Below, in pieces: positions 59,101 through 62,100 of a stretch of DNA of 64,000 bases. Numbering within the stretch: position 1 is the first letter of the stretch; each line of letters begins with the position of its first letter. The position numbers are program-made. The DNA comes from Escherichia coli. GTDB lineage: Bacteria > Pseudomonadota > Gammaproteobacteria > Enterobacterales > Enterobacteriaceae. Location of the stretch: NCBI RefSeq assembly GCF_016026235.1, contig NZ_CP065613.1. One strand, written 5' to 3'.

Positions 59101-62100
59101 AGGCGATGCAGGTAAAAAAGGCGGCAAGCGTCGTCAGGTCGGTAAAAAGGTAAACTTTGAGCCAGACAGCGCCTTCCGCGGTGAGAAAAAAACGAAGCCG
59201 AAAGCAGCGAAGAAAGACGCGAGAAAAGCGAAAAAGCCATCGGCGAAAACGCAGAAAATAGCTGCAGCGACCAAAGCGAAGCGTGCGGCGAAGAAAAAAG
59301 TGGCAGAGTGATCATTACCCTCTTCAAACAGAAGAGGGTTAGATTACTGACAAAATGCGCTTTGTTCATGCCGGATGCGGCGTGAACGCCTTATCCGGCC
59401 TACATAATCACGCAAATTCAATATATTGCAGAGATCATGTAGGCCGGATAAACGTAGTGCATCAGGCAAAACGTAAACAACGAGTACATTAATGAGCGAA
59501 ATGATTTACGGCATCCACGCAGTGCAGGCCCTGCTGGAGCGCGCCCCTGAACGTTTTCAGGAAGTCTTTATTTTAAAAGGCCGTGAAGATAAACGTCTGT
59601 TACCGCTGATTCACGCCCTTGAGTCCCAGGGCGTGGTTATCCAGTTGGCAAACCGCCAATATCTCGACGAGAAAAGCGACGGTGCCGTGCATCAGGGCAT
59701 TATCGCCCGCGTGAAGCCAGGACGTCAGTACCAGGAAAACGATCTGCCGGATCTGATCGCTTCGCTCGATCAGCCGTTCCTGCTGATCCTCGACGGTGTA
59801 ACCGATCCGCACAACCTCGGTGCGTGCCTGCGTAGTGCGGACGCCGCAGGCGTTCACGCGGTGATTGTGCCGAAAGATCGCTCCGCACAGCTCAACGCCA
59901 CGGCGAAAAAAGTAGCCTGCGGCGCGGCAGAAAGCGTTCCGCTGATTCGGGTGACTAACCTTGCGCGCACCATGCGTATGTTGCAGGAAGAGAATATCTG
60001 GATCGTCGGTACGGCAGGCGAGGCGGATCATACACTCTATCAGAGCAAAATGACCGGACGCCTGGCGCTGGTGATGGGCGCGGAAGGTGAAGGTATGCGT
60101 CGCCTGACCCGTGAACATTGCGATGAGTTGATCAGCATCCCAATGGCAGGAAGTGTTTCTTCTCTGAACGTTTCGGTTGCAACCGGAATTTGCTTATTTG
60201 AAGCGGTGCGCCAGCGCAGCTAATTTCTCAGAATTATGAAAAGCCATCCAGATTTGGATGGTTTTTTTGTGTTTAGCTGGTAAGATAATTACGTACTGCA
60301 AATATTCATTTTGTTAATATTTAAACTAAATCTATATGGAATAATATATGACATGGAATCCGTTGGCGCTGGCGACGGCGCTGCAAACTGTACCTGAACA
60401 AAATATTGATGTAACAAATAGCGAGAACGCATTAATTATTAAAATGAATGATTATGGCGATTTGCAAATCAATATTCTTTTTACTTCCCGCCAAATGATT
60501 ATCGAAACCTTTATTTGTCCGGTAAGTAGTATCAGCAATCCAGATGAATTTAATACCTTCTTATTAAGAAATCAGAAGATGATGCCGTTGTCATCGGTAG
60601 GGATCTCCAGCGTACAACAGGAAGAGTATTACATTGTTTTCGGGGCGTTATCGCTTAAATCTTCTCTTGAAGATATCCTGCTTGAGATAACCTCGCTGGT
60701 AGATAACGCATTGGATCTGGCTGAAATTACAGAAGAATATTCACACTAATTACAAGGACGGGTATTTATGGGAATTTTAAAAAGTTTATTTACGCTGGGG
60801 AAATCGTTTATCTCCCAGGCGGAAGAGTCCATTGAAGAAACCCAGGGTGTGCGCATGCTGGAACAGCATATTCGTGACGCTAAAGCTGAACTCGATAAAG
60901 CCGGAAAATCTCGCGTTGATCTGCTGGCGCGGGTGAAATTAAGTCACGATAAGCTGAAAGATTTACGTGAGCGCAAAGCCAGTCTGGAAGCCCGTGCGCT
61001 GGAAGCGTTAAGCAAGAACGTTAATCCGTCGTTGATTAACGAAGTTGCTGAAGAAATCGCGCGCCTTGAGAATCTCATTACCGCTGAAGAGCAAGTGTTG
61101 TCGAATCTGGAAGTCTCCCGTGATGGCGTGGAAAAAGCAGTTACAGCGACAGCGCAGCGTATCGCTCAGTTTGAGCAGCAAATGGAAGTCGTTAAAGCCA
61201 CTGAAGCCATGCAGCGTGCACAACAGGCTGTAACAACCTCTACCGTTGGCGCATCTTCCAGCGTTTCGACAGCGGCAGAATCCTTAAAACGCCTGCAAAC
61301 GCGTCAGGCCAAACGTCAGGCGCGCCTGGATGCTGCTGCACAGTTGGAAAAAGTCGCGGATGGTCGCGATCTTGATGAAAAGCTGGCGGAAGCAGGAATT
61401 GGCGGTAGCAATAAAAGTAGCGTCCAGGATGTGCTGGCAAGACTGCAACGCCAACAGGGCGAGTAATTTTTTGCCAGCCTCACTGCAAGGCTGGCAACTA
61501 TTTTAAGGATAAAATATGTCTGGTTTTTTCCAGCGTCTGTTTGGCAAGGATAATAAGCCTGCTATCGCTCGCGGTCCGCTGGGACTTCATCTCAATAGTG
61601 GCTTTACACTCGACACGTTAGCGTTTCGTTTGCTGGAAGATGAATTGTTGATTGCGCTGCCGGGTGAGGAATTTACGGTAGCCGCTGTCAGTCACATCGA
61701 TCTGGGCGGCGGTAGCCAGATTTTCCGCTACTACACTTCAGGCGATGAGTTTCTGCAAATCAATACTACCGGCGGCGAAGATATTGATGACATTGATGAT
61801 ATCAAGCTCTTTGTCTATGAAGAGAGCTACGGTATCAGTAAAGAGAGTCACTGGCGCGAGGCGATCAACGCCAAAGTGATGGGGGCAATGATCTTAAACT
61901 GGCAGGAAAAACGCTGGCAGCGATTTTTTAACAGCGAAGAACCGGGAAATATCGAACCCGTCTACATGCTGGAAAAAGTAGAAAATCAAAACCATGCCAA
62001 ATGGGAGGTCCATAATTTTACCATGGGCTACCAGCGGCAAGTAACCGAAGATACTTACGAATATTTGCTGTTAAATGGTGAGGAATCTTTTAACGATCTC

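What the first reader, a model, noticed from the sequence alone, without database searches (positions are those of the whole stretch)
60270..60749. yjfI and its leader are compositionally atypical (AT-rich) compared with the rest of the yjf cluster
The yjfI coding region and its upstream 80 bp are visibly AT-rich with A/T-ending codons, whereas yjfJ onward has normal E. coli composition. This could mean yjfI is a later addition to the operon or that the operon entry point is H-NS regulated.
Basis: seen in the sequence. Interest (0 to 1): 0.25.

Follow-up and report, generated by a model that had tools for sequence, protein, structure and literature searches.

The report
AT-rich, H-NS-bound start of yjfIJKLMC
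The first gene of the E. coli yjf operon and its leader really are unusually AT-rich, but this is an old trait shared across enterobacteria that marks the H-NS-bound, normally silent entry point of the operon; it does not mean yjfI was added later.

Summary
Window 60270-60749 is 35.8% GC against 50.8% for the window, and only 0.7% of 480-bp windows are as low. yjfI (38.6% GC) is the lowest of 46 mapped genes in GC, GC1, GC2 and GC3. About half the deficit comes from amino-acid composition and half from A/T-ending codons (z = -5.1, the most extreme of 46).

The contrast with the rest of the cluster is overstated. yjfK and yjfL are also low, and GC recovers gradually into yjfJ with no step at the yjfI/yjfJ border.

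"Later addition" is not supported:
- yjfI sits directly upstream of the PspA-like yjfJ in all 27 intact loci out of 29, including Marinomonas, Alteromonas, Glaciecola and Vibrio.
- Its tree follows the species.
- It is under purifying selection.
- It is present in 5412 of 5426 complete E. coli genomes.

The same AT trough (8-18 points below background) occurs in all 12 Enterobacteriaceae loci, but is nearly absent in marine relatives.

The H-NS idea is supported by published ChAP-seq, which marks rlmB, the yjfI-yjfJ and yjfJ-yjfK spacers, yjfK and yjfL as bound. In vitro SELEX did not flag the spacer, and silencing itself is inferred.

Side finding: the T-run at 60262-60268 is T7 here and T9 in most E. 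coli. A published T9->T8 deletion switches the operon on.

Ordinary overall; low interest.

The parts
59492..60223 (+). rlmB, the last gene of the upstream nsrR-rnr-rlmB unit. It is GC-rich (56.4%). Its 3' end is the sharp upstream edge of the AT trough.
   Evidence: Mapped from RefSeq annotation. GC. Listed as H-NS-bound in Higashi 2016 S2 Table.
60238..60268 (+). Intrinsic terminator of rlmB. The stem-loop is 60238-60267, and its T-run is 60262-68.
   Evidence: Terminator scan. RNA fold -18.2 kcal/mol, z -5.6. The hairpin is conserved, with compensatory changes, in Citrobacter, Kosakonia, Enterobacter and Salmonella diarizonae.
60262..60268 (+). Homopolymeric T-run: T7 in this window, T9 in K-12 and most E. 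coli. It is the site of the published (T)9->8 deletion associated with yjfIJKL activation.
   Evidence: Sequence. ALE mutation table 'DEL (T)9->8 rlmB,yjfI intergenic (+47/-80)'. Survey: T9 in 4207, T8 in 127 and T7 in 20 of 4783 genomes with K-12-type flanks. The window's own allele has no exact match.
60278..60286 (+). Predicted extended -10 element TGGTAAGAT of the yjfI promoter. The inferred transcription start is around 60292-60294.
   Evidence: Phylogenetic footprint TGnTAnnAT at the same place in Escherichia spp., Kosakonia, Salmonella diarizonae and Enterobacter; Citrobacter has GGGTATTAT. RpoD holoenzyme binds this spacer in vitro. Inference only: no TSS data were found, and the strict two-hexamer scan found no site.
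60269..60347 (+). AT-rich leader/promoter region (about 22% GC), with a probable Shine-Dalgarno GGA at 60338-60340.
   Evidence: GC. (block TATATGGAATAATATATG conserved within Escherichia). (no significant RNA structure, z +0.35). (no Rfam family).
60348..60749 (+). yjfI, a DUF2170 / CesT-Tir-like small cytoplasmic protein. It is the most AT-rich gene in the window, and its first ~65 codons have the lowest GC3.
   Evidence: Homologue with a solved structure: 8q8o (DUF2170, BacA), E 2.3e-36. CesT/Tir assignment.
60768..61466 (+). yjfJ, a PspA/IM30-family protein. Its first ~130 codons are the downstream slope of the AT trough.
   Evidence: Pfam PF04012, E 1.3e-57. GC3 blocks.
61516..62175 (+). 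yjfK (DUF2491).
   Evidence: H-NS-bound in Higashi S2. GC 46.8%.
62193..62591 (+). yjfL (DUF350 membrane protein).
   Evidence: H-NS-bound in Higashi S2. GC 43.4%.
62601..63239 (+). yjfM (DUF1190).
63242..64000 (+). 5' part of yjfC (glutathionylspermidine-synthase-like ATP-grasp ligase), cut by the window end.
   Evidence: Annotation of the matching RefSeq records. Translation.

Best explanation
The AT-rich block is the promoter, leader and first gene of a normally silent envelope-stress-type operon. The operon consists of yjfI (CesT-like), yjfJ (PspA-like), and then yjfK, yjfL, yjfM and yjfC.

The block starts abruptly at the rlmB terminator. It is deepest over the leader and the first ~65 codons of yjfI, and fades out about 130 codons into yjfJ. 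It is therefore a positional DNA-level feature centred on the operon's entry point, not a property of one gene.

It has been kept across Enterobacteriaceae genera even though synonymous sites are saturated between them.

Proposed mechanism:
- H-NS nucleates on this AT-rich stretch and spreads from the 3' end of rlmB to yjfL.
- This occludes a sigma-70 extended -10 promoter that RNA polymerase can use unaided in vitro.
- The operon therefore stays off under laboratory conditions until silencing is bypassed. One example is a change in the T-run that sits in the -35/spacer position of that promoter.

What is shown: the composition, its gradient and its cross-genus conservation; the ancient linkage of yjfI and yjfJ; published H-NS occupancy; in vitro RNAP binding; and the operon's silence and its activation in strains carrying (T)9->8.

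What is inferred: that H-NS causes the silence, that the AT-richness is selected for this purpose, the exact promoter, and how the T-run change acts.
For: - Composition and decomposition.
- Gradient without a step at the gene border: mean GC3 over 11 Enterobacteriaceae loci is 0.56-0.70 in rlmB, then 0.39, 0.36, 0.52, 0.46 in yjfI, then 0.49, 0.49, 0.54, 0.50, 0.63, 0.57, 0.55 in yjfJ.
- Conservation: yjfI is 8-18 GC points below local background in all 12 Enterobacteriaceae loci, but 0 to -6.7 points in 17 marine or other gammaproteobacterial loci. This includes a 57%-GC genome where it is only -2.7. pS between genera is 0.75-0.81, i.e. saturated.
- H-NS occupancy: Higashi 2016 S2/S3 tables. 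In this window the only other bound block they list is epmA-3'/yjeM, which is the only other low-GC segment of my scan lying in the listed efp-to-yjfL stretch.
- RNAP alone binds the rlmB>yjfI spacer.
- The operon forms its own iModulon, which is up only in strains carrying (T)9->8 at -80. Plasmid-driven activation improved growth at 42 C.
- Conserved TGnTAnnAT footprint just downstream of the terminator.
Against: - Genomic SELEX with purified H-NS did not mark the rlmB>yjfI spacer.
- Higashi's call is 'bound in at least one of three strains', and yjfI/yjfJ themselves are not rows in their ortholog table. Occupancy over yjfI is interpolated from both flanks.
- No hns or stpA mutant expression data were found, so the silence could instead reflect a missing activator.
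- AT-richness near the mutational equilibrium is also what a weakly selected, rarely expressed gene would drift to. H-NS binding could be a consequence rather than the reason.
- The promoter assignment is a footprint, not a mapped TSS. Shimada et al. predicted a different hexamer pair (TTAATA-17-TGGAAT).
Confidence: 0.55

Rival explanations
1. Neutral drift. yjfI and the start of yjfJ are rarely expressed and fast-evolving, so AT-biased mutation is not opposed by codon-usage selection. The DNA sits near mutational equilibrium. H-NS binds it simply because it is AT-rich, with no selected regulatory role.
For: - The operon is essentially unexpressed across a very large expression compendium.
- YjfI is among the fastest-evolving proteins of the cluster: 58-73% identity between genera, against 93-98% for RlmB.
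- yjfI's GC tracks host GC somewhat: 0.39-0.40 in E. coli-type Escherichia (0.35 in the fergusonii-type locus L005) and 0.43-0.48 in Kosakonia.
Against: - All genes of one operon share transcription, yet GC3 differs systematically with distance from the promoter.
- YjfK and YjfM evolve as fast as YjfI but are at or near background GC in Kosakonia and Citrobacter sedlakii.
- dN/dS of 0.05-0.26 shows yjfI is not decaying.
- The upstream edge is sharp and fixed at the terminator in every genus.
Confidence: 0.27
2. Ancient horizontal transfer. The whole yjfIJKLMC cluster entered an ancestor of Enterobacteriaceae from a low-GC gammaproteobacterium. It has ameliorated except at its 5' end.
For: - Orthologous clusters in Marinomonas, Alteromonas, Glaciecola and Vibrio have 38-45% GC, similar to enterobacterial yjfI.
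- In those taxa the cluster is not next to rlmB.
- Prediction methods used by Higashi et al. label rlmB, yjfK and yjfL as putative transferred genes (h/l/n flags).
Against: - Synonymous sites are saturated between enterobacterial genera, so a donor's composition should have been erased. Yet the trough is the same in every genus.
- Incomplete amelioration does not explain why only the promoter-proximal ~700 bp stays AT-rich.
- The donor is not identified, and identities to marine homologues are only 27-35%.
Confidence: 0.12
3. One reading: yjfI alone was added to, or replaced in, a pre-existing yjfJKLMC operon, and it keeps its donor's composition.
For: - yjfI has the lowest GC of the cluster.
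- Between E. coli and a fergusonii-type Escherichia locus (L005), dS peaks at yjfI: 1.69, against 0.27 in rlmB and 0.35-0.53 in yjfK, yjfL and yjfM. This could reflect a local allelic replacement.
Against: - yjfI-yjfJ adjacency holds in 27 of 29 loci across several gammaproteobacterial orders, and is reported as the conserved core dyad.
- The YjfI identity matrix is congruent with the species.
- There is no compositional step at 60750-60767.
- The elevated dS extends into yjfJ (0.755), and is absent in the E. whittamii and MOD1 comparisons.
- The region is present in 99.7% of complete E. coli genomes.
- No mobility genes are adjacent.
Confidence: 0.03
4. Protein-level constraint only: YjfI needs many Ile/Asn/Phe/Lys/Tyr residues, and that alone makes the gene AT-rich.
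For: - FYMINK residues make up 30% of YjfI against a window mean of 23%, and GARP residues 13% against 27%.
- The GC expected from the amino acids is the lowest of 46 genes.
Against: - This explains only about 6 of the ~13 missing GC points. Synonymous choice adds ~7 more and is the most extreme in the window.
- Homologues in a 57%-GC genome are 54% GC.
- The non-coding leader is even more AT-rich.
Confidence: 0.03

Closest known systems
H-NS-bound 'core' genes and promoter regions of E. coli (Higashi et al. 2016, PMC4720273; their example is ybdO)
   Same: An AT-rich block covering a promoter plus the adjoining coding DNA. It is H-NS-bound in ChAP-seq and conserved in position among strains. 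It has elevated sequence diversity: within-E. coli dS is 0.096-0.142 for rlmB, yjfK and yjfL, against 0.014-0.094 (mostly below 0.07) for the H-NS-unbound neighbours listed. This locus is in their tables.
   Different: No reporter or hns-mutant test has been done for this locus. The AT trough here is shared by several genera, whereas their analysis compared only E. coli strains.
Cryptic H-NS-silenced operons with upstream and downstream (intragenic) silencing elements, such as bgl and proU (established knowledge, not tested here)
   Same: A promoter usable by RNAP alone but silent in vivo. AT-rich DNA extends from upstream of the promoter several hundred bp into the first gene. Activation comes from small cis mutations near the promoter.
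   Different: For bgl and proU the silencing elements were mapped genetically. Here they are only inferred from composition and occupancy. The activating lesion is a homopolymer contraction rather than an IS insertion or a CRP-site change.
The classical psp operon (pspABCDE with PspF/sigma-54) (established knowledge)
   Same: It encodes a PspA/IM30-family membrane-protecting protein with small partner proteins.
   Different: No PspF, PspB or PspC genes are adjacent. A sigma-54 -24/-12 reading of the conserved motif fails on spacing or on the GC dinucleotide in most genera (my inspection). The partner is a CesT-like DUF2170 protein.
Pseudomonas aeruginosa bac cluster (PA3732-PA3729; BacA = DUF2170, structure 8q8o)
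   Same: DUF2170 gene first and a PspA_IM30 gene second. BacA matches the YjfI family profile at E 2.3e-36.
   Different: Its composition was not examined here. It has no linked glutathionylspermidine-synthase-like gene according to the authors.
Promoter homopolymer contingency switches (phase variation by tract-length change; established knowledge from Neisseria and Haemophilus)
   Same: A T-run lies in the -35/spacer zone of the predicted promoter. Its length varies among genomes (T9, T8, T7), and a 1-nt contraction is associated with an OFF-to-ON change.
   Different: T9 is found in 88% of genomes. The minority lengths may be assembly errors. No reversible switching has been shown, and a 9-nt tract mutates far more slowly than classical contingency tracts.

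Membership tests
H-NS-bound / silenced AT-rich region | AT content far above the genome average over several hundred bp | tested here: met
   The GC trough of 0.32-0.40 spans about 600 bp, and 0.7% of 480-bp windows are as low.
H-NS-bound / silenced AT-rich region | H-NS occupancy in vivo | tested here: met
   By look-up of published ChAP-seq tables. rlmB, yjfK and yjfL, and the yjfI-yjfJ and yjfJ-yjfK spacers, are marked TRUE, meaning bound in at least one of K-12, SE11 and SE15. yjfI itself is not a row. In vitro SELEX did not flag the spacer.
H-NS-bound / silenced AT-rich region | Derepression when hns (or hns and stpA) is deleted | not testable with these tools
   No such data were found in the searchable literature.
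Xenogeneic (recently acquired) DNA | Patchy presence among close relatives; phylogeny incongruent with neighbours; mobility genes nearby | tested here: not met
   Present in 5412 of 5426 E. coli genomes. Same position next to rlmB in Escherichia, Citrobacter, Kosakonia, Enterobacter and Salmonella diarizonae. Identity matrix congruent. No IS or integrase adjacent.
Gene added later to an existing operon | Compositional step at the gene border, and operons of the same type lacking the gene | tested here: not met
   There is a gradient, not a step. yjfI and yjfJ are adjacent in 27 of 29 loci. Literature: variants lack the whole dyad, not yjfI alone. The converse search, for yjfJ-type clusters without yjfI, was not run.
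YjfI / DUF2170 (CesT-Tir-like) family | Pfam PF09938 match above the gathering score | tested here: met
   151.6 bits against a cut-off of 27, covering residues 2-131.
YjfI / DUF2170 (CesT-Tir-like) family | Genomic pairing with a PspA/IM30 gene | tested here: met
   yjfJ starts 18 bp downstream and matches PF04012 at E 1.3e-57. The pairing is conserved.
YjfI / DUF2170 (CesT-Tir-like) family | CesT/Tir chaperone fold | not tested
   Taken from Ravi 2024 and the BacA structure paper. I only confirmed sequence homology to 8q8o. No structure prediction was run.
Sigma-70 extended -10 promoter | TGn immediately upstream of a TAnnnT hexamer, plus a mapped start site | tested here: inconclusive
   The motif is TGGTAAGAT at 60278-60286, conserved as TGnTAnnAT in most genera. 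No TSS data exist. The strict scan found no two-hexamer promoter.
Homopolymer contingency (phase-variable) promoter | Tract-length polymorphism linked to ON/OFF expression | tested here: inconclusive
   Counts are T9 4207, T8 127 and T7 20 of 4783 genomes, and the window is T7. A T9->T8 link to activation is published. Homopolymer assembly errors cannot be excluded, and reversibility is untested.

The most novel reading that the evidence does not exclude
The AT-rich leader plus the first half of yjfI is a selectively maintained cis-acting silencing platform that has kept a PspA-like membrane-protection operon cryptic in Enterobacteriaceae since before the genera diverged. The T-run at the terminator/promoter junction acts as a natural mutational switch. 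Rare T8/T7 alleles, including the T7 in this window, would then be constitutively 'unlocked', more heat- or envelope-stress-tolerant variants.
Probability: 0.12. Interest if true: 0.5.

Novelty: already known. Interest (0 to 1): 0.22.

Why it matters
The finding explains why a widely conserved PspA-like operon of E. coli has stayed uncharacterised: it appears to be held off at an AT-rich, H-NS-occupied entry point. It also points to simple ways of turning the operon on for study, namely the T-run length, hns mutants, or recoding yjfI.

It is also a cautionary example. Low GC and atypical codons in a core gene need not mean recent horizontal transfer or a later addition. Here the signal is old, positional and shared across genera.

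The practical value is modest, because both the H-NS occupancy and the activating mutation are already in published data.

Tried and rejected
- A 37-sequence alignment of distant YjfI homologues (A1) was too diverse for the locus scan. A 7-sequence enterobacterial alignment worked. As a result, sampling outside Enterobacteriaceae depended on two peptide patterns. Salmonella enterica (other than diarizonae), Klebsiella and Pseudomonas were not recovered.
- Regulatory RNA in the leader: no Rfam family came near threshold, and the leader RNA folds no better than shuffles (z +0.35). Rejected.
- Sigma-54 promoter, by analogy with pspA. TGGTAA-N5-TTAC in E. coli has the right spacing but AC instead of GC, and in the other genera the spacing is wrong (inspection). 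Rejected.
- Conserved mini-ORF ATG-GAA-TAA just upstream of the yjfI start. It is present in Escherichia and Kosakonia, but the frame or stop is not conserved in Citrobacter youngae, Enterobacter or Salmonella. More likely the GGA is the ribosome-binding site.
- A -35 element that would explain why T9->T8 activates. No hexamer better than 2-4 of 6 falls at a usable spacing for T9, T8 or T7 (inspection). The mechanism is left open.
- Terminator weakening as the cause. A U8 or U7 tract is still a normal terminator tail and the hairpin is unchanged. Judged unlikely, but not tested.
- The strict promoter scan found no site in 59900-61000. The hexamers predicted by Shimada et al. (TTAATA-17-TGGAAT) would put the start inside the start codon, so I do not adopt them.
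- Codon adaptation index: the installed Biopython lacks the E. coli index. I used expected-versus-observed GC under window codon usage instead.
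Full report
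**What is there.** The window is an E. coli chromosome segment running from cadBA through groESL, frd, hfq and purA to nsrR-rnr-rlmB-yjfIJKLM and the start of yjfC. Over the 601-bp query (60200-60800) it is 99.7% identical to strain FDAARGOS_943 and 98.7% to K-12 BW25113. The finding covers the 78-bp leader and the whole of yjfI (60348-60749, 133 aa, Pfam DUF2170, E 1.5e-44).
- Upstream, rlmB ends at 60223 and is followed by a strong intrinsic terminator. The stem-loop is 60238-60267 with a T-run at 60262-60268 (-18.2 kcal/mol, z -5.6).
- Downstream lie yjfJ (PspA/IM30), yjfK (DUF2491), yjfL (DUF350) and yjfM (DUF1190).

- The stated interval is 35.8% GC against 50.8% for the window. The leader is 21.8% and yjfI 38.6%. 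Only 0.7% of 480-bp windows are as low.
- yjfI ranks lowest of 46 mapped genes for GC, GC1, GC2 and GC3 (z -3.4, -2.5, -1.9, -2.45), and lowest of 53 long ORFs.
- I split the deficit in two. With window-average codon usage, YjfI's amino-acid sequence would give 46.3% GC, itself the lowest of 46 genes (mean 52.6%).
- The real gene is 38.9%, a synonymous AT bias of z = -5.1 and the most extreme in the window.
- The claimed contrast is too clean, however. yjfK (46.8%) and yjfL (43.4%) are also low, and yjfJ, yjfK, yjfL and yjfM all have below-average GC3.

**Shape of the feature.** The trough has a sharp upstream edge at the end of rlmB and a gradual downstream slope. I cut rlmB, yjfI and yjfJ into blocks and averaged over 11 Enterobacteriaceae loci.
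- Mean GC3 runs 0.56-0.70 in rlmB, then 0.39, 0.36, 0.52, 0.46 in yjfI, then 0.49, 0.49, 0.54, 0.50, 0.63, 0.57, 0.55 in yjfJ. GC12 climbs in the same gradual way.
- There is no step at the yjfI/yjfJ border. This is a positional DNA feature centred on the operon entry point, not a property of one gene.

**Is yjfI a later addition?** No.
- A scan of one genome per species returned 29 loci. In 27 of them the yjfI homologue is immediately followed by a yjfJ homologue and then by yjfK and yjfL, usually also yjfM (one locus, L031, is cut off by the contig end after yjfJ). In many, a ~1-kb gene sits between yjfJ and yjfK.
- These loci include Marinomonas, Alteromonas, Glaciecola, Aliiglaciecola, Agaribacter, Amphritea and Vibrio, where the cluster is not next to rlmB.
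- The two exceptions are a decayed Salmonella diarizonae copy and a fragmented Enterobacter copy.
- YjfI identities follow the species groupings, as its neighbours' do. dN/dS is 0.05-0.26.
- The region is present in 5412 of 5426 complete E. coli genomes.
- Ravi et al. 2024 independently describe the CesT/Tir-like (YjfI) plus PspA dyad as the conserved core of these neighbourhoods. They note variants in which the whole dyad is replaced. The modular seam therefore lies after yjfJ.
- P. aeruginosa BacA (PDB 8q8o) is a DUF2170 homologue that also sits first, ahead of a PspA-type gene.

**How old and how specific is the AT-richness?**
- In all 12 Enterobacteriaceae loci (Escherichia spp., Citrobacter, Kosakonia, Enterobacter, Salmonella diarizonae), yjfI is 8-18 GC points below the local gene background. 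In the 11 of these that retain yjfJ it is 8-14 points below it, and across the 12 loci the GC3 deficit is 10-25 points.
- In the 17 other gammaproteobacterial loci the difference is only 0 to -6.7 points. This includes a 57%-GC genome where yjfI is 54%. The family is therefore not intrinsically AT-locked.
- The trough occupies the same place (-200 to +400 relative to the ATG) in every enterobacterial locus. This is so even though synonymous sites between genera are saturated (pS 0.75-0.81).
- A donor's composition should not survive that much change. Something keeps this stretch AT-rich.

**H-NS.** Higashi et al. 2016 mapped H-NS by ChAP-seq in K-12, SE11 and SE15.
- Their tables mark rlmB, yjfK and yjfL, and the yjfI-yjfJ and yjfJ-yjfK spacers, as H-NS-bound. 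yjfI and yjfJ are not rows in the ortholog table.
- Of the other genes of this window listed there (efp through nsrR), only epmA-3'/yjeM is bound. That block is the only other low-GC segment of my scan lying in the stretch those tables list (efp through yjfL).
- Shimada et al. 2014 found that RpoD holoenzyme alone binds the rlmB>yjfI spacer in vitro (a 'constitutive promoter'). They did not flag that spacer as a SELEX H-NS site.
- In vivo the operon is its own iModulon, and it is up only in heat-evolved strains.
- A promoter that works without activators in vitro, is silent in vivo and lies in H-NS-occupied AT-rich DNA is the classic picture of H-NS silencing. But no hns-mutant data were found, so regulation remains an inference.

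**Promoter and leader.** Aligning the rlmB-yjfI spacers across genera gives three conserved blocks:
- the terminator hairpin, with compensatory changes;
- a TGnTAnnAT block 9-12 nt after the T-run (TGGTAAGAT at 60278-60286), which reads as an extended -10 element;
- within Escherichia, TATATGGAATAATATATG around the ribosome-binding site and start codon.

No Rfam family and no significant leader structure were found.

**The T-run.**
- The mutation that the heat-evolution study links to yjfIJKL activation is '(T)9->8, intergenic (+47/-80)'. This is exactly the terminator T-run, which lies in the spacer/-35 zone of the predicted promoter.
- This window has T7. Its 99.7% relative, K-12, O157 and other Escherichia species have T9.
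- Among 4783 complete genomes with K-12-type flanks, T9 is exact in 4207, T8 in 127 and T7 in 20.
- With the window's own flanks no genome matches exactly; the best have T8 (3 genomes) or T9.
- The T7 may be real or a homopolymer assembly error, and I cannot tell which. I found no convincing -35 element that would explain the effect. Terminator weakening seems unlikely, because U7-U8 tails are normal.

**Explanations weighed.**
- Best (0.55): an old, positionally conserved, H-NS-occupied AT-rich entry region that keeps the operon cryptic.
- Main rival (0.27): neutral drift of a rarely expressed region toward AT, with H-NS binding as a by-product. Against it are the within-operon gradient, normal GC in the equally fast-evolving yjfK and yjfM in several genera, and purifying selection on yjfI.
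- Ancient transfer of the whole cluster with incomplete amelioration (0.12). This fits the low GC of marine orthologues and the published HTG flags, but not the saturation of synonymous sites.
- yjfI-only addition (0.03) and protein constraint alone (0.03) are essentially excluded.

**Verdict.** It is an AT-rich, H-NS-bound promoter-proximal region of a silent core operon, already present in published datasets. The cross-genus conservation and the gradient are new details. The T-run polymorphism is the most interesting loose end.

Noticed in passing
window 60262-60268: The rlmB-terminator T-run is T7 here. It is T9 in K-12, O157, the 99.7%-identical strain FDAARGOS_943 and other Escherichia species. 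A published (T)9->8 deletion at this exact site is the predicted cause of strong yjfIJKL activation in heat-evolved E. coli. In complete genomes with K-12-type flanks the counts are T9 4207, T8 127 and T7 20. The short tract may be a real 'unlocked' allele or a homopolymer assembly error.
   Followed up: partly
window 61467-61515; L005 3070-4140: E. coli has only 49 bp between yjfJ and yjfK. A fergusonii-type Escherichia locus, Citrobacter, Enterobacter ENT03 and many marine loci carry a ~1-kb gene there. In L005 it encodes 356 aa with a K+-channel-like TLGFGD motif, matching the 'potassium channel' of Ravi et al.'s third operon group. The E. coli-type cluster has lost it.
   Followed up: partly
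L005 1958-3070 versus window 60348-61466: There is a local peak of divergence between E. coli and the fergusonii-type locus. dS is 1.69 in yjfI and 0.755 in yjfJ, against 0.27 in rlmB and 0.35-0.53 in yjfK, yjfL and yjfM. RlmB is 100% identical while YjfI is 81%. The peak is not seen against E. whittamii or Escherichia sp. MOD1. This suggests an old allelic replacement or lineage-specific acceleration at the 5' end of the operon.
   Followed up: partly
L036 3525-3620 (E. coli SCPM-O-B-7615): This is a natural deletion allele. The rlmB terminator T-run (T8) is joined directly to the middle of yjfC, removing yjfI, yjfJ, yjfK, yjfL and yjfM. Fourteen of 5426 complete genomes have no match to the yjfI region, so the operon is dispensable.
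   Followed up: partly
L012 6399-7544 (Salmonella enterica subsp. diarizonae): Only a truncated yjfI (about 90 aa aligned) and a YjfM fragment remain next to rlmB, with no yjfJ, yjfK or yjfL. The cluster is decayed in this lineage, yet the remnant is still AT-rich (36% GC).
   Followed up: no
window 60348-60400: The first 17 codons of yjfI are GC-rich (ATGACATGGAATCCGTTGGCGCTGGCGACGGCGCTG...) and can form a small hairpin. The AT-rich body of the gene follows immediately. The heat-evolution paper's suggestion that YjfI is a periplasmic lipoprotein does not fit this N-terminus, which has no lipobox cysteine, nor the CesT-like cytoplasmic chaperone assignment.
   Followed up: no
window 414-1505, 8017-9435, 11088-11996, 23314-24256: These are other AT-rich patches of the window (480-bp minima of 34-37% GC), comparable to the yjfI trough. 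One covers the cadC/cadBA control region, whose spacer Shimada et al. flag as an H-NS site. The others were not examined.
   Followed up: no
window 60238-60267, both strands: The rlmB terminator hairpin has an A-run on its 5' side and the T-run on its 3' side, so it also scores as a terminator on the minus strand (bidirectional form).
   Followed up: no
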